Shown here one piece after another: positions 11,178 through 16,354 of a stretch of 20,000 nt of DNA (its first letter is position 1; each line of letters opens with the position of its first letter). The DNA comes from Psammoneis japonica (Eukaryota). Under the pieces are notes generated by a model. That model did not search any database. It saw only the letters and a program-made list of their open reading frames with translations, and had not been told where the DNA came from. The DNA lies in assembly GCA_008632985.1 (NCBI GenBank), contig QPGO01000202.1, forward strand, positions 111,691 to 131,690. The letters run 5' to 3'. The position numbers and the translations under genes were made by a program.

Positions 11178-11556
11178 TGCACTATGCTCGAAGAACGAGT
11201 GTAAACGAAAGTATGACGAAGTTCAAAAGGTGAAAATTATGAGAATCATTTCTGCGCAATCATTTTGGGTTTCTCCGAACGGGTTCTCAATAGCCTGAAC
11301 CTTTTGCACTGCTCCTACAGACAAAAGGCCTTTCGGAGAATATGATCGTGACGACAGATTGTCCGGATACGATTGACATTGACACGTAAGATGTCAACAT
11401 CATCGTACGATCGCATTTGCGATTCTCGACATCCAATCACTTCTGTGTGACTGATCTGTACTTCGTACGAACCCACGATTGACGTACGATTGAAACATAC
11501 TTTTATTTAATATATAGATATACATATATAATACGTACATGACAACGCACATTGCA
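11178..11556 (-). repeat. 3' LTR (379 bp)
   Basis: Gap-free alignment to 15976-16354, TGCA...TGCA ends, adjacent to the PPT. Confidence 0.97.
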
Positions 11557-11566
11557 TTCGCCTCCC
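11557..11566 (-). other. Polypurine tract
   Basis: Minus strand GGGAGGCGAA directly abuts the TG of the 3' LTR. Confidence 0.85.
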
Positions 11567-11582
11567 TAATTGCACATTAGAG

Positions 11583-14500
11583 TCAGTCGTTAAACGGCAT
11601 TATTCGACGAACATTGACAGTGTCAATAACGTTACCGCGTTTGATCTGTACTGTGCCATTAGTATGTACCGTTGTTATTACATACGGTCCAACATAGGGC
11701 TGTTCTAATTTTTGCGAGTCTTTCTCGAGTAGTATCTTTTCTCCTACTCTGTACGTGTAAGGAGTACGTCGAGCATTCTCTCGAGCGTTATTTTTATTTA
11801 TGATTTCTTGTTTTCGCTGCTGGATTAATTTCCAGTCCGCGACATGTTGGACGTTAAATATCATGTCTCTATTGAAGACTAGTTGTCCTGGTGTAGATTG
11901 CGTAGTAGCATGATACGTAGAACGTACTGCAAACGCTACCGCTGATAGTGTTCCAGCGAAAGGATCCTCAGTATCTAGAGGTGTATGTTGCAAATCAAAT
12001 GTATGGAGCATGTTCCCCAGCACTTGATGTACGCGTTCAACAATTGCGTTTGCTTGTGGATTTCGTGTGGTTGTAGGCTTGACTTTAATGCCATGACCAT
12101 CTTGCACCATTTCTCTAAATTGGTGTCCGATGAACTCACTTCCACGGTCACATGTAATTGACGATGGCCAAGGATGTCCACTTGGCCATGTTCGTTCTAA
12201 CAGTCCAGCCACAGTTGTGGACTCCTTGTTTGGGATTTCCACAACTTCAAACCATCCGGTTGCTGGATCGATCGCAGTTGAACATTTCAGGACTGGGGGT
12301 TTTTCCTTTCCCTTGCGACGCACTTTGTATGGCCCAACAAGGTCCACACACAGTCGTTCCCATGGTGCGGATTCTGCGCACTTGGGAGGTAAATGTCCAC
12401 ATTTCTTGTGTTTCTTTTTGAATTTTTGGCACGTCTCACATCTCGACACGTGTTTTCGTATGTCTTCACGTGAGGTGGACCACCGTGGGTGTTGTGAGAT
12501 TGTTTCTTCTGTTCGATTTATGCCAGGGTGAAGAAGGTGCGCATGATGCCAATCCATCACTGCCTTTTGCAATGTCCTCGGGACGACAATTTCATCCTTG
12601 TGACATGTGAGCAACCGGTCTCGCTCGCCTCCACGAAAAGTCTTCGTATGAAACGTCTTGTTTGACAATTGGGAGAGAATGTCTTTGTCCCATTTTTGTT
12701 CACAATCAAGAACTTTGCAATTTAACGGAAAGACATTGTCGCAGGATTTTGGTGGGGACCTTTTCAGCTGGCTCTTCTGTGCTGAGGGTTTCCATGGGTT
12801 CTATTTTCTTCATGGCAAGTCGGCCAATCGTGTCTGCGACAATGTTTGCCTTGCCCTCAAGGCATGTCATTTTGGGACTGCACTCTTCTGTCATTAGACG
12901 CCAATGCATGACTCTGTCCGTTGTGAAATTTTTGTGTGTGAGATTTTTGTGATCCGCACGCATGTTTGTCTGTTGGCCAAACAGTGTGTTGCGGAACTCT
13001 TTTAACGTCTCCACTGTGGACAACAGCTCTTTTTCCGTTGCAGCACAACGCGTCTGCGCTCCATTCAGCTTGCGGCTGTAGAAGGCAATTGGTCGGTTTT
13101 TCTGAGCAATGACCGCCCCCAATTTGAGAATTGCTGGCATCGGCACACATCTCAAAGGGGATGTTAAAATTCGGGTGTGACAATGGCATGTCTTTGGAGA
13201 TGATGCGCTTCATGTTTTCGAAGGCTTTTTGTTCTGTTTCGGTCCATTGCCACTTTGCTTGGGTAGAAGTGAGTTTGGCTAAAGGAGCTAAAACATGAGA
13301 TCGTCGAGGCCACATGTCTCGACAGTGGTTGATCATGCCGATAAAGCGTCGCAATTCCTTGCGAGTTTTAGGAGTTGCGATCGCGTGAATCGCTTCTACT
13401 TTTTTTGGAATCGGACTGATGCCCTTGCGGGTGATGTGAAAGCCCAGATAGTCTGCTTCGGGTTTAGCGAAAAAGGACTTCTCGGCGTTGACCTTCAATC
13501 CGGCTTGTTCCAGGCGTAAGAACACCGTTTCAAGCTTCTTGAGGTGGTCTTGAAAATCACTTTTTGTAAGACACAATGTGTCGTCAACATAAGTTCTGAC
13601 GAACTCCAGACCTGCCATGAGCTCACTCATGTGCTCTTGGAAAATATCTGGAGCTCCACAGATTCCCATCGGGAGTCTACAGTGCTCACATTTGCCCCAA
13701 GGCATGACGATCGTGCACAAGCAACGTGCATGCGGCGTCAATTCGATGTGATAGCATCCCATGTTTAAATCTAGGGACGTTGCATGCATGAAGCCTTCAA
13801 GCTTCTGTGGCATGTCCTGAACATTGGGTGGAGGAAACGGAGTGCGAATTAACCTCTCACTTAGCTCACGAAAGTCGGATGAGAACCGAACTCTGCCATT
13901 TTTCTTGGGTTGAACAAAGGTTGGAGCCGCCCATTCAGAACAATTTATTTTTCTTGAGACTTTCAACTTGCACAGTCTTTCAACCTCCTTACGAGCAGTT
14001 GCCTCCAAGGCTTGTGGTGCGGGAAATGGTTTGGCATGACACGGACTCACGCCCGATTTCAACTTTAAATCCACCGGTTTCCCGGTCCATTTGCCTGGAG
14101 AACCATCGAAAAGGTTTTCAAATCTTTTTAAGAGGAAGTTCAGCTGCTTCTGCTCTTCAGGAGTTAGATGAGCAGCTGCTGCGGTCACATTGTTGAGGTT
14201 TGCAGCGTGATGGTCTGAGTCAAGGATCCGATTGACCCTGTCATTAAGACCAATCACTGCATGAGATTCCTCAATGTGATCGGCAATCAACTTGAAAACA
14301 TCGGCATCGAAGAGTGCATCAACATTCTTCACAGGAGTGGTTGCATCTTCCCATTTAATCTCTTCATTCGAGAAGTCCAATGTTGTCCCAAGACTTGACA
14401 TTAAGTCGCGTCCCATGATCATGTCACAATGACTCGAAGAAGAAGGGGAGTTGTCAACATGTGCCGTTGTTTCAATCATCTTGTGTTTGTCAAATTCGGG

Positions 14501-14785
14501 CAAGGAGAATTGGATCTTACATCGACTGTCAGTCGTGAAGAGCCCTCCTTTGGTTTCCCAGAGTTTGGTGGCGGATGCTTTTGTTCTGAGTTTCCGCGTG
14601 AATTTGCGCAAAATTATGGTTGACGATGTTCCGCCATCGAGGAGAACGCACAGAGGCTTATTTTTCGCCTTGCCTGATGAAGTGTTCATGTGGGCGACAA
14701 CTGCTGGACTAGTGTGAATTACTTTGGCCCTTTTTCTGGGCTTCCTAACATCCAGCAGAGCACAAGACTCCTCTTGCGGTGCAAG
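11583..14785 (-). pseudogene. pol: pol: aspartic protease, reverse transcriptase, RNase H, integrase with GPY/F motif; two frameshifts (about 13123 and about 12760)
   Basis: PR LLDGGTS; RT SLDLNMGCYHI, RLPMG, YVDD; RH CADAS, PIAFYSRKL, EKELL, DHKNL; IN HHCC (HAHLLHPG..CETC), DDE (VDLVGP, DRGSEF, NAIVERVH), QPYVGPY. No chromodomain; stop at 11583. Confidence 0.95.
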
Positions 14786-15939
14786 TCATTCCTCAGAATC
14801 ACTGCGCGTCATTTTTTCAAACTGACAATTTTCCTCGTCAAGGGTGTCAGAATCACAATCTTTGCTCTTGTGTTTTTTGTCATTGTTTGAAGAACTCGCT
14901 TTGAGCATTTTTTGAACTGCTTGGATCGCCACAGCATTCAACTCTTCTTTGCGAGCGGCGTCATCGTTATCGCGACGAGACCACGTGCGATTGCCATTTG
15001 AACGGCGCCGTTTCGGGTCGGGTTCATAGTTCCCACGGTGTTCTTTCGCAAGTCTTTTGATCGACCAGCACTTGTCCGTGTTATGAGTGGATTTCTCGCA
15101 TAAAATGCACCACTTCTCGGACTGAGATTTTTCGGTGCCATGTTGGTGACCATTTTTGGAACCACGTTGGGAACCACTCTTGGCTTTTGATGCAGTGCCG
15201 CCACTGCCATCAGCCTTGGCATGAATGCCATCAAATGTGTCTTCTGCGACCTCTGGGCGCTCCAAGAACTCAACCAACTCGTCACAGGCATGTTTCAAAA
15301 TTTCGAAACCCTGGACGGTCGACTGACACTGCCACTTTCGAGGTGCAAGGTTGAAGAGGATGTCCTTGAGCTCGTCGTCCTCGATCTTCTGTTCCTTCCA
15401 AAGGGAGGATAGAACTTGAGGTCTTCGTTGACTTCCTGGACCCAAGCAGCAATTTCGCGTACTTTCATGGACTCCGGCTTCTTGAGATCACGACGCAAAT
15501 AACGTTTCTGCACCGAAAGTGCGTTCTTGGGAAACACATGCCTCGTGAGATGTTGCAGGCATTTCTCGAAGCTTCCTTCCGCAGATTCGTCTTCAAGGTT
15601 CGCTGCCGCATTCTCGAAAGCACGTAGAGCGTCTCCTTGAAGTAACATGCGCATGAGACGAAACTTGTCAGATTGCTTCCTGACATTCTGGCCCACTGGA
15701 AGTTGATCGTAGCTCTTGAGAAATTCGATGAACTTGGGGACACCTTGTTTCTTGCAGCACTCAACATTGATGGTGCAGGCACGGCTGTCCTTCTTCTCGG
15801 GATGAAAACGTTGCTCCATCTTGAGGTGCTGGCTCAGTTTGAGGCTCTTCGGCTCGGAGTTCGATTCCAGCGGTTGAGGGACGATTTTCTCCTGCCTTAA
15901 CGAAGTTTTGGCGTTGGTTGCATGAGGTGAAAGCTTCAT
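14786..15939 (-). pseudogene. gag: gag with CCHC-like knuckle, frameshifted near 15398
   Basis: ATG at 15939 (MKLSPH...), LLQGDALRAF..HVFPKNAL..LKKP, then FYPPFG/KEQKIEDDELKDIL across the frameshift, and WCILCEKSTHNTDKC knuckle. Ends with TGA at 14786. Confidence 0.88.
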
Positions 15940-15975
15940 CTTGAACTTGTTACCTTCTGTGGTGTGTACACACAA

Positions 15976-16354
15976 TGCACTGTGCTCGAAGAACGAGTGC
16001 AAACGAAAGCACAACGAAGTTCAAAAGGTGAAAATTATGAGAATTATTTCTGCGCAATCATTTTGGGTTTCTCCGAACGGGTTCTCAATGGCCTAAACCT
16101 TTTGCACTGCTCCTACAGACAAAAGGCCTTTCGGAGAATGTGATCGTGACGACAGATTGTCCGGGTGCGATTGACATTGACACGTAAGATGTCAACATCA
16201 TCGTACGATTGCATTTGCGATTCTCGACATCCAATCACTTCTGTGTGACTGATCTGCACTTCGTACGAACCCACGATTGACGTGCGATTGAAGTGCACTT
16301 TTATTTAACATGTAGACACACATGTGTGATGCGCACATGACAACGCATGTTGCA
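15976..16354 (-). repeat. 5' LTR (379 bp)
   Basis: Gap-free alignment to 11178-11556 with 29 substitutions by manual alignment, all transitions. Confidence 0.97.

What the first reader, a model, noticed from the sequence alone, without database searches (positions are those of the whole stretch)
11178..16354. Inverse-RIP: post-integration TpA>TpG/CpA hypermutation of a transposon, a candidate undescribed genome-defence system
Seen: the two 379-bp LTRs differ at 29 positions (manual alignment), all transitions with no indels. At 20 of these one LTR has TA and the other TG or CA, e.g. tatatagatatacatatataatacgtac versus catgtagacacacatgtgtgatgcgcac. Six more are three CA-versus-TG pairs (ancestor TA or CG), two are A>G directly 5' of a TA, and only one is a clear CG/TG change although more than 20 CpGs are shared. 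Established: LTRs are identical at integration, fungal RIP is C>T and creates TA, and 5mC decay targets CpG. Inference: a fast, context-specific A:T>G:C mutator acts on chromosomal DNA of repeats. Each LTR has private changes and both A>G and T>C occur on the same strand, which argues against ADAR editing of the RNA or RT error. Possible mechanisms are a DNA adenine deaminase with TA preference, Pol eta-type error-prone patch repair (WA motif), or thymine oxidation. I know of no described system like this, but could not search the literature.
Basis: partly seen in the sequence, partly recalled or inferred. Interest (0 to 1): 0.96.

Follow-up and report, generated by a model that had tools for sequence, protein, structure and literature searches.

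The report
TpA-erasing hypermutation of a retrotransposon
A Gypsy-type retrotransposon and the repeat DNA around it have had their TA dinucleotides converted to TG or CA after insertion, the mirror image of fungal RIP and the same signature first reported in 2026 for viral insertions in a marine alga.

Summary
The two 379-bp LTRs differ at 29 sites, all transitions with no indels, and 26 lie in TA versus CA/TG pairs.

- Most of the window is nearly TpA-free, e.g. 14 seen against 472 expected in 4461-11177. CpA+TpG is about 1.9-fold enriched. The rRNA gene and an 820-bp stretch of the element are normal.
- At 23 conserved Tyr (TAY) columns outside that stretch, this copy has 8 His (CAY), 8 Cys (TGY), 2 Phe and 5 Tyr.
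- 38 of 40 unambiguous A:T>G:C changes at conserved residues are at TpA.
- At 11 sites nearly all other genomic copies keep TA where this copy has TG or CA; the reverse occurs at 2.

Classical RIP, RNA editing and CpG decay do not fit.

It is no longer undescribed. A 2026 preprint measured exactly this TpA>TpG/CpA hypermutation in integrated viruses of Bigelowiella natans.

New here: an LTR-pair demonstration on a retrotransposon, near-total erasure over kilobases, a spared stretch, and a tentative R-TA-Y preference. Organism and enzyme remain unidentified.

The parts
11174..11177 (.). Left copy of the 4-bp target-site duplication, GACA.
   Evidence: the left flank ends ...GGACA and the right flank starts GACAG...
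11178..11556 (-). LTR A. This is the 3' LTR in the element's own orientation. It is largely unmutated: 26 of an inferred 31 TpA are still present.
11178..12000 (-). Spared stretch with ordinary dinucleotide content. It covers LTR A plus the last ~440 bp of the internal region (integrase C-terminus and polypurine tract). TpA observed/expected is 0.77 in LTR A and 1.09 in 11557-12000. TpA density falls off over about 12000-12200.
   Evidence: list of TA positions. Tyr 5 of 140 residues, which is normal.
11586..12734 (-). Integrase segment (zinc-binding H2C2 domain plus rve core), reading frame c.
   Evidence: Pfam; tblastn.
12811..14737 (-). Reverse transcriptase and RNase H segments, in two frames (14737-13115 and 13125-12811). 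The frame breaks lie near 13120 and 12740-12810.
   Evidence: In one search, some other copies have one base fewer at 13123 and at 12754/12755.
12001..15975 (-). Hypermutated part of the internal region. There are 63 TpA against 263 expected. Of 23 conserved Tyr columns, 16 now read His or Cys.
14786..16020 (-). Upstream ORFs, presumably gag and protease. They have no Pfam match.
15976..16354 (-). LTR B. This is the 5' LTR in the element's own orientation. It is hypermutated: 21 of an inferred 31 TpA were changed, to TG or CA.
16355..16358 (.). Right copy of the target-site duplication, GACA.
4461..11177 (.). Left flank: old repeat DNA with TpA almost erased (14 seen, 472 expected). CpA+TpG observed/expected is 1.86 and CpG observed/expected is 0.14.
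16355..18100 (.). Right flank and rDNA-spacer tandem repeats, also TpA-free. 16355-17080 has 2 TpA against 45 expected, and 17081-18100 has 0 against 27 expected.
1..2420 (-). Older, related Gypsy remnant in the same orientation, about 71-82% identical to 12619-15176. TpA observed/expected is 0.11.
2860..3245 (+). Older related LTR (C), inverted relative to LTR A and B and about 81% alike. Used as an outgroup; it is itself TpA-depleted.
4068..4455 (+). Older related LTR (D), about 74% like A and B and 80% like C. It shows strong CpG decay.
18657..20000 (-). The 3' part of a eukaryotic LSU rRNA gene, with normal TpA (observed/expected 0.82) and normal CpG (1.04). It marks the right edge of the TpA-free domain, which ends at about 18100-18250.
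   Evidence: Rfam RF02543 at 857 bits.

Best explanation
A Ty3/Gypsy LTR retrotransposon lies on the minus strand and has an intact 4-bp target-site duplication. It inserted into repeat-filled spacer DNA next to an rRNA gene. After insertion, a DNA-level mutator converted TpA to TpG or CpA with about equal frequency. It has hit most of the element (12001-16354, including the 5' LTR) but so far largely spared the 3'-terminal ~820 bp (11178-12000, including the 3' LTR). That difference is why the two LTRs differ by TA versus TG/CA. The older repeats around the element have been driven almost to zero TpA and, more slowly, have also lost CpG.

The signature is the same as the TpA hypermutation measured in mutation-accumulation lines of Bigelowiella natans (Mettrop et al., bioRxiv 2026).

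Shown here: the direction, the TpA specificity, the strand symmetry, the timing after integration, and the regional patchiness.

Inferred, not shown: the chemistry. My preferred reading (about 0.5) is deamination of adenine to hypoxanthine in DNA at 5'-TA on either strand, by a nucleic-acid adenosine deaminase of the TadA/ADAT2 kind, as the preprint proposes. Also inferred: that the process serves to silence foreign or repeated DNA. One consequence is loss of Tyr codons, and also of TATA-like signals and AATAAA-like signals, both of which contain TpA.
For: - Landscape. TpA seen/expected is 14/472 in 4461-11177, 2/45 in 16355-17080, 0/27 in 17081-18100, 23/213 in 1-2850 and 63/263 in 12001-15975. 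It is 40/37 in 11557-12000. TpA observed/expected is 0.82 in the rRNA gene. CpA+TpG observed/expected is 1.34-1.95 in the depleted parts and 0.98-1.03 in the normal parts.
- Tyr test. Tyr has only TAY codons. Using the three correct reading frames and 60 of the 120 homologues, 16 of the 23 conserved-Tyr columns outside the spared stretch are now His (CAY, 8) or Cys (TGY, 8). Two are Phe and 5 are still Tyr. The single such column inside the stretch is Tyr. Tyr makes up 3 of 643 residues in the RT ORF, against 3.8% in the homologues (minimum 2.9% among the 120).
- Polarised spectrum at conserved residues: A>G 25, of which 23 follow T; T>C 15, all before A; G>A 10; C>T 2; transversions 20. A further 12 were ambiguous and 23 needed two or more changes.
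- Other genomic copies. Among the 40 best-supported rows, nearly all other copies have TA where this copy has TG (7 sites) or CA (4 sites). The reverse occurs at 2 sites.
- LTR pair. 21 of 31 TpA were lost in LTR B against 5 of 31 in LTR A (p = 7.8e-05). The loss in LTR B equals that at coding Tyr, 16 of 21 (p = 0.55). Non-TpA divergence is only 3 of 317 sites. That gives a per-base rate at TpA about 120 times the non-TpA background in LTR B and about 19 times in LTR A.
- CA/TG doublets. The three doublets are expected if an original TA went one way in one LTR and the other way in the other. If they came instead from CpG, all 3 CpG hits in LTR A would have to coincide with 3 of the 4 CpG hits in LTR B, among 28 CpG (counts; my own hand calculation gives p of about 0.001).
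- Strand symmetry. TG versus CA outcomes are 10 versus 8 in the LTR and 23 versus 15 on the coding sense strand.
- Published precedent with direct measurement: 230 of 231 new mutations were A>G or T>C, all on TpA.
Against: - The two outgroup LTRs in the window carry the LTR B state (CA/TG) at LTR positions 25, 115, 309, 321 and 359. Taken at face value this is the RIP direction. I attribute it to the outgroups' own TpA loss (observed/expected 0.13), which is an assumption.
- Two of the 40 rows show this copy with TA where other copies have CA.
- One search also shows 10 G>A and 2 C>T changes, and one search shows 11 private CpG>TpG/CpA changes. So TpA loss is not the only process acting.
- Only 40 of 1108 variant rows were visible, and the tool chose them by support. 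They are not an unbiased sample.
- The spared stretch could be a gene-conversion patch or an assembly chimera from an unmutated copy. In that case the LTR differences would not be a clean in-situ clock.
- No mutation was observed happening here. No enzyme was identified, and the organism is unknown.
Confidence: 0.8

Rival explanations
1. Ordinary RIP-like C>T at CpA (and G>A at TpG). On this reading the TA-rich LTR A and the adjacent 11557-12000 are the mutated part, and CA/TG is the original state.
For: - 20 of the 29 LTR differences fit CpA/TpG>TpA if the G/C allele is taken as ancestral.
- Outgroup LTRs match LTR B at five sites.
- The 250-bp windows 11501-12000 pass the usual RIP indices: TpA/ApT is 1.05-1.11 and (CpA+TpG)/(ApC+GpT) is 0.79-0.86.
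Against: - The TA-rich stretch has ordinary, not extreme, composition: TpA observed/expected 1.09 and CpA+TpG 0.98, like the rRNA gene. It is the rest of the window that is abnormal.
- The integrase frame stays open through the 40 TpA of 11557-12000, and Tyr content there is normal (5 of 140 residues, with no excess).
- 16 of 23 conserved Tyr columns outside the stretch read His or Cys. That cannot be an original state for a working reverse transcriptase or integrase.
- Other copies keep TA at 11 sites where this copy has TG or CA.
- The three CA/TG doublets do not fit this reading.
Confidence: 0.03
2. RNA-level editing (ADAR-type A-to-I on double-stranded RNA) or reverse-transcriptase error before integration, inherited by the DNA copy.
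For: - ADAR prefers a 5' U, so UA>UG resembles the signature. This is recalled knowledge and is also noted in the preprint's discussion.
- Differences among family copies are mostly transitions: 953 transition places against 141 transversion places.
Against: - By established retrotransposon biology, both LTRs of one insertion are copied from the same template. Differences between them therefore arise after integration.
- A>G and T>C are equally common on one strand.
- DNA that is not retrotransposed is also TpA-free, namely the rDNA-spacer tandem repeats at 17081-18100 with 0 TpA against 27 expected.
- In B. natans the changes arose in chromosomal DNA during clonal growth.
Confidence: 0.03
3. 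Same DNA-level signature but different chemistry. The pyrimidine is attacked: thymine at TpA is oxidised or otherwise modified (TET/JBP-type, giving 5hmU or 5fU) and then mispairs with G, producing T>C on either strand.
For: TpA is its own reverse complement, so A>G on one strand and T>C on the other cannot be told apart. Within sites whose two adenines have different flanking classes, the changed one was the pyrimidine-flanked adenine 6 times and the purine-flanked adenine 7 times. So nothing singles out adenine. It is recalled, not tested here, that thymine-modifying systems with a TpA preference exist (5hmU in dinoflagellates, base J in kinetoplastids).
Against: No evidence here points either way. 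The preprint reports an ADAT2-like candidate by similarity only.
Confidence: 0.2
4. The mutator is real, but the contrast between the LTRs is not an in-situ record. The 3' ~820 bp (11178-12000) was copied in from an unmutated family member, either by gene conversion or by assembly or polishing of a high-copy family.
For: - The family is very abundant: 5163 contig pieces were laid, 776 of them at least 99% alike.
- TpA density changes over only about 200 bp near 12000.
- LTR A loss (5 of 31) differs sharply from LTR B loss (21 of 31).
Against: - The target-site duplication is intact.
- LTR A carries its own 5 TpA losses.
- The preprint also reports patchy, episodic action: hypermutation was seen only in some lines, with 2-45 mutations per line.
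- No contig-level evidence for a chimera was seen, but none could be sought after the single read-laying run.
Confidence: 0.15
5. Sequencing artefact: a modified base at TpA in silent chromatin is misread, so the DNA sequence itself is unchanged.
For: Only 55% of the sampled 31-mers of 10400-17000 were found in the one run that holds the stretch.
Against: - A misread on each strand would give mixed CA and TG reads at every site, not the fixed, copy-specific states seen in the assembly and in the contigs.
- The depletion follows biological boundaries: the element's edge and the rRNA gene.
- Three unrelated database proteins from a JGI source show the same Tyr>His/Cys pattern.
Confidence: 0.04

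Closest known systems
TpA>TpG/CpA hypermutation of integrated giant-virus and virophage DNA in Bigelowiella natans (Mettrop et al., bioRxiv 10.64898/2026.01.13.699255). I read the abstract, Results and Discussion, plus a term search of the main text; the supplements are closed.
   Same: - Changes are almost exclusively A:T>G:C and confined to TpA, with both TpG and CpA outcomes.
- The action is local and patchy.
- The long-term footprint is TpA depletion with CpA+TpG enrichment. [quoted passage not shown]
- The preprint found reverse-transcriptase and DDE domains enriched among TpA-poor coding sequences.
   Different: - Here the target is an LTR retrotransposon of a high-copy family plus rDNA-spacer repeats, not a single-copy viral insertion.
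- Erasure is close to complete (observed/expected 0.00-0.04, against 0.45 for their virus region).
- The evidence here is comparative (LTR pair, Tyr codons, other copies), not a measured mutation rate.
- A spared stretch inside one element, a tentative R-TA-Y preference and a later CpG loss are seen here. None of these appears in the main text I read.
- It is not established that the window comes from that species.
Repeat-induced point mutation (RIP) of ascomycete fungi.
   Same: It is a dense, transition-only, dinucleotide-specific hypermutation of chromosomal repeat DNA after integration. It affects both strands and wrecks transposon genes.
   Different: The direction is opposite. RIP turns CpA into TpA, lowers GC and creates stop codons. 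Here TpA becomes CpA or TpG, GC rises, and TAA and TAG disappear (in 4461-11177: TAA 9, TAG 3, TGA 153). Dependence on duplication or on a sexual phase was not tested here, and the B. natans target is single copy.
ADAR hyper-editing of double-stranded RNA.
   Same: A>G with a 5' U/T preference.
   Different: ADAR acts on RNA. It cannot make the two LTRs of one insertion differ, and it cannot erase TpA from spacer repeats that are not retrotransposed.
APOBEC3-type editing of retroelement cDNA.
   Same: A deaminase-based restriction that leaves clustered transitions in integrated retroelements.
   Different: APOBEC3 gives C>U on minus-strand cDNA, seen as G>A on one strand, before integration, and both LTRs are affected alike. 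Here the changes are A:T>G:C, strand-symmetric and after integration.
5-methylcytosine decay at CpG.
   Same: It also feeds the TpG/CpA pools. It is visible in this window in the older repeats: C versus D has 11 CG/TG and 6 CG/CA differences, CpG observed/expected is 0.14 in the left flank, and this copy has 11 private CpG losses.
   Different: It accounts for only 1 of the 29 LTR differences. 24 CpG are shared intact by the two LTRs.

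Membership tests
TpA hypermutation of integrated foreign DNA (as defined by Mettrop et al. 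2026) | [quoted passage not shown] | tested here: met
   In the LTR pair, 26 of 29 differences are explained as TpA losses, and there are 0 transversions. In the coding part there are 40 A:T>G:C changes against 12 G:C>A:T among unambiguous transitions at conserved residues.
TpA hypermutation of integrated foreign DNA (as defined by Mettrop et al. 2026) | Mutated A follows T and mutated T precedes A, i.e. changes occur only at TpA. | tested here: met
   23 of 25 A>G changes follow T, and 15 of 15 T>C changes precede A. In LTR B, 21 of 23 changed A/T sites lie in TpA, p = 7.7e-12.
TpA hypermutation of integrated foreign DNA (as defined by Mettrop et al. 2026) | [quoted passage not shown] | tested here: met
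   TpA observed/expected is 0.00-0.13 and CpA+TpG observed/expected is 1.56-1.95 over 1-11177 and 16355-18100.
TpA hypermutation of integrated foreign DNA (as defined by Mettrop et al. 2026) | Local targeting: the ordinary genome is not affected. | tested here: inconclusive
   The rRNA gene (TpA observed/expected 0.82) and 18101-18656 (0.59) are not depleted. However, the rRNA gene is under selection, and the window contains no single-copy neutral DNA.
TpA hypermutation of integrated foreign DNA (as defined by Mettrop et al. 2026) | An elevated de novo rate measured across generations. | not testable with these tools
   Only a comparative estimate is possible: about 120 times (LTR B) and about 19 times (LTR A) the non-TpA background.
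TpA hypermutation of integrated foreign DNA (as defined by Mettrop et al. 2026) | The host is Bigelowiella natans. | tested here: inconclusive
   No genome is held for this window. No protein is more than 69% identical to the element's RT. The run's organism is coded. The look-up of source names was not available.
Fungal RIP | C:G>T:A direction, with CpA>TpA, making TpA-rich and GC-poor products that contain stop codons. | tested here: not met
   The direction is the opposite. TAA and TAG are nearly absent from the mutated DNA.
Fungal RIP | Triggered by sequence duplication during the sexual cycle. | not testable with these tools
   No genome or crosses are available. The targets here are repeats, but the published target is single copy.
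ADAR / RNA-level editing | Changes arise on the RNA before integration, so both LTRs inherit them alike and only one strand type is seen. | tested here: not met
   The LTRs differ at 26 TpA-related positions. Both A>G and T>C occur on one strand.
Ty3/Gypsy LTR retrotransposon (the substrate) | Direct LTRs with TG...CA ends, a target-site duplication, and RT - RNase H - integrase order. | tested here: met
   One search shows the ends and the GACA duplication. One search gives RVT_1, RT_RNaseH_2, Integrase_H2C2 and rve. One search gives the order on the minus strand.

The most novel reading that the evidence does not exclude
The window comes from an organism other than the one strain in which TpA hypermutation was reported, or at least it shows that the system is much broader than 'anti-viral'. 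On this reading it is a saturating mutator directed at silent chromatin or repeats. It erases TpA from LTR retrotransposons, older transposon debris and rDNA-spacer repeats right up to the edge of the rRNA transcription unit. It acts in patches with sharp edges inside a single element, prefers the palindromic context R-TA-Y (suggesting recognition of duplex DNA by a symmetric enzyme), and runs ahead of a slower CpG decay. The Tyr-free reverse transcriptases found in a JGI source (P0131, P0186, P0175) would then be footprints of the same system in further element families or hosts.
Probability: 0.35. Interest if true: 0.8.

Novelty: new member of a known kind. Interest (0 to 1): 0.6.

Why it matters
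A mutator that erases TpA from integrated DNA is known from a single 2026 preprint. That work is in one alga, on two viral insertions, and the enzyme is unidentified.

This locus gives independent, sequence-level confirmation on a different class of target, a high-copy LTR retrotransposon and its repeat neighbourhood. It also shows the end state: kilobases with essentially no TpA, no Tyr codons, almost no TAA or TAG, and open frames in all phases. That end state will mislead gene finders and RIP-index tools.

The locus offers handles for working out the mechanism:
- An LTR pair that brackets the time of action.
- A sharp boundary inside one element.
- A possible R-TA-Y motif to test on a candidate deaminase.
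- A domain edge at the rRNA gene.

If the host turns out not to be B. natans, the system would be shown to exist in more than one lineage.

Tried and rejected
- Whole-genome search for family copies was not possible; no genome is held.
- Polarising the 29 sites with the two older LTRs in the window gave a mixed answer. Five sites favoured the RIP direction and six to eight favoured the reverse. I set this aside once those LTRs proved to be TpA-depleted themselves.
- My first working guess, ordinary RIP at 55%, was rejected.
- The first conserved-column analysis used the raw ORF 12857-14785. That ORF is out of frame below about 13120. I redid the analysis in three frames. The Tyr result changed only from 14 of 23 to 16 of 24 columns reading His or Cys.
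- Extended motif. The idea that the changed adenine prefers a 3' pyrimidine failed a within-site test, 6 versus 7.
- The comparison of surviving TpA with the spared stretch (p = 0.00016) is weakened because the rRNA gene's TpA contexts [18, 33, 8] resemble the survivors [26, 37, 10].
- Only the LTR-internal comparison supports R-TA-Y: changed sites 0/5/16 against kept sites 2/6/2, p = 0.0057. This is small and post hoc.
- Strand runs in LTR B: I counted 10 runs by hand among the 18 TA>TG/CA events, against about 9.9 expected. This shows no strand processivity, but it is not a tool result.
- Pfam on 13 flanking ORFs found nothing.
- Earlier scan notes held nothing by place, by words or by sequence.
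- The metagenome scan returned one distant locus (L001, 59% identity) with normal TpA. It was of no use for polarising.
- Source names for the three Tyr-depleted database proteins could not be looked up.
- Runs X2 and X3 held next to nothing of the stretch.
- Literature searches for any other report of TpA-directed A:T>G:C hypermutation of repeats found only the one preprint. A search for B. natans LTR elements found nothing relevant.

Full report
**Observation**

Two direct repeats of 379 bp lie at 11178-11556 (LTR A) and 15976-16354 (LTR B). They start TG and end CA. They are flanked by the same four bases, GACA, at 11174-11177 and 16355-16358.

A gap-free comparison gives 29 differences. 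All are transitions, with no transversions and no indels. By dinucleotide:
- TA in A versus TG in B: 10.
- TA in A versus CA in B: 8.
- The reverse (TA in B): 2.
- CA-versus-TG doublets: 3.
- CG versus TG: 1.
- Two A/G sites (LTR positions 190 and 318) that sit directly 5' of a TA site.

The LTRs share 24 CpG intact.

**Anatomy**

The region between the repeats encodes, on the minus strand, reverse transcriptase, RNase H and integrase (Pfam RVT_1, RT_RNaseH_2, Integrase_H2C2, rve). The order RT-RH-IN is that of Ty3/Gypsy elements.

The polyprotein lies in three frames: 14737-13115, 13125-12811 and 12734-11586. The breaks are near 13120 and 12740-12810. At those places some other genomic copies have one base fewer. 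In the element's own orientation, LTR B is the 5' LTR and LTR A is the 3' LTR.

The window also holds:
- An older related Gypsy remnant (1-2420).
- Two older related LTRs in inverted orientation (about 2860-3245 and 4068-4455).
- Tandem repeats at 17081-18100.
- The 3' part of a eukaryotic LSU rRNA gene at its right end (18657-20000, minus strand; RF02543, 857 bits).

The element therefore sits in transposon-filled spacer DNA next to rDNA. Thirteen flanking ORFs have no Pfam match.

**The polarity problem**

Two sequences cannot say whether TA or CA/TG is the older state. RIP makes TA, so RIP was my first guess.

The two older LTRs used as outgroups gave a mixed answer. At LTR positions 25, 115, 309, 321 and 359 they agree with LTR B. 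At 7, 35, 190, 282, 318 and 320 they agree with LTR A.

No genome is held for the window. One public DNA run (X1, kept as contigs) held 55% of the sampled words. Laying its contigs at 80% likeness showed a very abundant family. There were 5163 pieces, 776 of them at least 99% alike. Differences from this copy fell at 953 transition places and 141 transversion places. Only 40 of 1108 variant rows were shown.

**The landscape decides it**

A 250-bp dinucleotide profile and segment totals show that most of the window is almost free of TpA.

| Segment | TpA seen | TpA expected |
|---|---|---|
| 4461-11177 | 14 | 472 |
| 16355-17080 | 2 | 45 |
| 17081-18100 | 0 | 27 |
| 1-2850 | 23 | 213 |
| 12001-15975 (element) | 63 | 263 |
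| 11557-12000 (element) | 40 | 37 |

- In the depleted segments outside the element, CpA+TpG observed/expected is 1.56-1.95; in the element's own depleted part (12001-15975) it is 1.34.
- LTR B has 10 TpA and LTR A has 26.
- 11557-12000 has CpA+TpG observed/expected of 0.98.
- The rRNA gene has TpA observed/expected of 0.82.

So the TA-rich part is compositionally ordinary, and the rest of the window is what is abnormal.

**Direct polarity tests**

*Tyr codons.* Tyr is encoded only by TAY, so conserved Tyr positions reveal the direction. I aligned each of the three frame segments separately with 60 of the 120 homologues (those of at least 1000 residues). This gave 488 columns where at least 80% of homologues share one residue, and this copy differs at 107.
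- Of the 23 conserved-Tyr columns outside the spared stretch, this copy has Cys (TGY) at 8, His (CAY) at 8, Phe at 2 and Tyr at 5.
- The one such column inside the stretch is Tyr.

*Implied nucleotide changes.* Where the conserved residue and this copy's codon differ by one unambiguous base:
- A>G 25, of which 23 follow T.
- T>C 15, all before A.
- G>A 10 and C>T 2.
- Transversions 20.
- Twelve more were ambiguous and 23 needed two or more changes.

*Tyr content.* Tyr is 3 of 643 residues in the RT ORF and 1 of 266 in the integrase part above 12000. It is 5 of 140 inside the stretch. The homologues average 3.8%, with a minimum of 2.9% among 120.

*Other genomic copies.* Among the 40 visible rows, nearly all other copies have TA where this copy has TG (7 sites) or CA (4 sites). 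The reverse occurs at 2 sites. Another 11 rows are private CpG>TpG/CpA changes in this copy.

All of this shows that TpA>TpG/CpA is the derived direction. The outgroup LTRs that seemed to favour RIP are themselves TpA-depleted (observed/expected 0.13). They therefore show CA or TG at former TA sites regardless.

**The LTR pair re-read**

Taking the A/T allele as the earlier state gives 31 TpA at integration. LTR B lost 21 of them and LTR A lost 5 (p = 7.8e-05). In LTR B, 21 of 23 changed A/T sites are in TpA, against 41 of 210 unchanged A/T sites (p = 7.7e-12).

The three CA/TG doublets are what is expected when one original TA went to CA in one LTR and to TG in the other. With 21 and 5 hits among 31 sites, about 3.4 double hits are expected (my arithmetic). 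If the doublets came instead from CpG, all three CpG hits of one LTR would have to fall on three of the four hit in the other, among 28 CpG. My hand calculation counts gives about p = 0.001.

Loss in LTR B (21 of 31) equals loss at coding Tyr (16 of 21; p = 0.55). LTR differences arise after integration, so the internal losses are most simply post-integration as well.

Non-TpA sites differ at 3 of 317. This puts the per-base rate at TpA at roughly 120 times the background in LTR B and about 19 times in LTR A.

Outcomes are strand-symmetric: 10 TG versus 8 CA in the LTR, and 23 versus 15 on the coding sense strand.

**What it is not**

- *RIP* runs the other way and would fill the integrase frame with stops. 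That frame is open through the 40 TpA of 11557-12000.
- *RNA editing or reverse-transcriptase error* cannot make the two LTRs of one insertion differ. It also cannot clear TpA from spacer tandem repeats.
- *CpG decay* explains 1 of the 29 differences. It is nevertheless real in this DNA. The older LTR pair C/D differs by 58 transitions and 20 transversions, including 11 CG/TG, 6 CG/CA and 9 CA/TG pairs. CpG observed/expected falls to 0.14 in the oldest flank.

The segments form a series from young to old, given as TpA then CpG observed/expected:

| Segment | TpA o/e | CpG o/e |
|---|---|---|
| 11557-12000 (spared stretch, internal part) | 1.09 | 1.42 |
| 12001-15975 (mutated element) | 0.24 | 0.85 |
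| 1-2850 (older Gypsy remnant) | 0.11 | 0.74 |
| 2851-4460 (LTR C to LTR D) | 0.13 | 0.40 |
| 4461-11177 (left flank) | 0.03 | 0.14 |

TpA therefore goes first and CpG follows.

**Comparison with what is known**

Four full-text searches found one report of such a process: Mettrop et al., bioRxiv 10.64898/2026.01.13.699255. I read the abstract, Results and Discussion, plus a term search of the main text.

In mutation-accumulation lines of Bigelowiella natans they report:
- 230 of 231 new mutations in an integrated giant-virus region (186 kb, single copy) and a virophage region were A>G or T>C, all on TpA.
- The rate was about 6e-7 per site per generation, and the hypermutation appeared in only some lines.
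- TpA-poor coding sequences were enriched for reverse-transcriptase and DDE domains.
- They propose an ADAT2-like DNA adenosine deaminase, on similarity alone.

The locus here meets the signature features of that process (see the membership table). It is therefore a further instance of a known but very newly described kind.

It is not established that the window comes from that species. The element's closest database proteins are at most 69% identical and unnamed. The run's organism is coded. The look-up of source names was unavailable.

**What this locus adds**

1. A demonstration on an LTR retrotransposon, using the LTR pair as a built-in before/after control.
2. The end state: kilobases with essentially no TpA. 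In 4461-11177 there are TAA 9 and TAG 3 against TGA 153, and long open frames in many phases.
3. Patchiness inside one element. The 3'-terminal ~820 bp is spared, and TpA density changes over about 200 bp near 12000.
4. A domain edge about 400-550 bp beyond the 3' end of the rRNA gene.
5. A tentative wider context. In LTR B the changed TpA fall in the classes Y-TA-R / mixed / R-TA-Y as 0/5/16, and the kept ones as 2/6/2 (p = 0.0057).
   - Within sites whose two adenines have different flanks, neither is preferred (6 versus 7). That fits a symmetric R-TA-Y context rather than a one-sided one.
   - Supporting comparisons with surviving TpA are weakened by an uncertain baseline.
   - The preprint's main text has no occurrence of 'trinucleotide' or 'flanking'.
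6. The same footprint elsewhere. Of 240 homologues, one has under 1.5% Tyr. In a check of the three homologues with the lowest Tyr content plus one control, against 40 long homologues, three JGI-source proteins show Tyr>His/Cys at conserved columns. P0131 does so at 11 of 12 columns, P0186 at 8 of 10 and P0175 at 4 of 10. The control P0121 keeps 11 of 13.

**Mechanism**

Shown: a DNA-level, post-integration, TpA-specific, strand-symmetric and regionally patchy conversion to TpG or CpA.

Inferred: the chemistry. I favour adenine deamination to hypoxanthine at 5'-TA on either strand (about 0.5). The natural substrate of TadA/ADAT2 enzymes is A34 preceded by the near-universal U33; this is recalled knowledge. 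The only published candidate is of that family. Attack on thymine at TpA by a TET/JBP-type enzyme, followed by mispairing with G, gives the identical footprint and cannot be excluded (about 0.2).

How targets are chosen is open. It could be repeats, foreignness or silent chromatin. The targets here are repeats, whereas the published one is single copy.

**Limits**

- There is no genome and no named organism.
- Only one run was usable, and it is kept as contigs.
- Only 40 tool-selected variant rows were visible.
- Counts for the context analysis are small.
- The spared stretch could be a conversion patch or an assembly chimera (about 0.15). That would weaken the LTR pair as a clock, but it would not weaken the direction or the specificity of the mutator.

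**Verdict**

It is no longer undescribed, but it is known from one preprint only, and this locus extends it to retrotransposons and shows its end state.

Noticed in passing
window 3250-11000 and 16500-17500: CpG is also almost gone from the oldest TpA-free DNA (observed/expected 0.00-0.3 per 250 bp, and 0.14 over 4461-11177). The young element still has CpG observed/expected of 0.85-1.65. This points to a second, slower decay, most likely 5mC deamination, that follows TpA loss. Eleven private CpG>TpG/CpA changes in this copy agree with that.
   Followed up: partly
window 4461-11177: Because TAA and TAG are erased (9 and 3, against 153 TGA), long open frames appear in several phases on both strands, for example 5584-6579 at 331 aa. 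None has a Pfam match. Gene finders would call such frames as orphan genes.
   Followed up: partly
window 18657-20000 (minus strand): This is the 3' part of an LSU rRNA gene (model positions 1994-3401). Two runs of N lie at about 19101-19196 and 19261-19359. The TpA-free domain stops about 400-550 bp downstream of the gene's 3' end.
   Followed up: partly
window 17081-18100: Purine-rich tandem repeats with periods of about 350-476 bp lie in the rDNA spacer. Copies are 93-98% alike and contain no TpA at all (0 against 27 expected).
   Followed up: partly
proteins P0131, P0186, P0175 (JGI source, unnamed): These reverse-transcriptase fragments are 55-59% identical to this element's RT. Their conserved Tyr positions read His or Cys (11 of 12, 8 of 10 and 4 of 10). 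This is the same footprint in other Gypsy families. Their origin could not be looked up.
   Followed up: partly
window 14211-14212, 9423-9468 vs 9663-9708, and LTR C vs LTR D: CA-versus-TG doublets recur between repeat copies: 9 in C versus D, and 2 in the 46-bp pair at 9423/9663. They are expected if a hypermutable TA (or CG) intermediate resolves either way in different copies.
   Followed up: partly
LTR positions 190 and 318 (window 11367/16165 and 11495/16293): The only two A>G differences not at TpA both lie directly 5' of a mutated TA (ATA>GTG). At conserved codons, 2 of 25 A>G changes follow A. This may be occasional spill-over to the neighbouring adenine.
   Followed up: no
window 2860-4455: Two older LTRs lie only 1208 bp apart in direct orientation, inverted relative to the studied element. 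They may be a truncated element or a tandem LTR arrangement.
   Followed up: no
window 3614-3778 and 9184-9335: Inverted repeats of 98 nt and 48 nt (74-81% complementary) lie about 5.4-5.6 kb apart inside the TpA-free flank. They may be the ends of another decayed mobile element.
   Followed up: no
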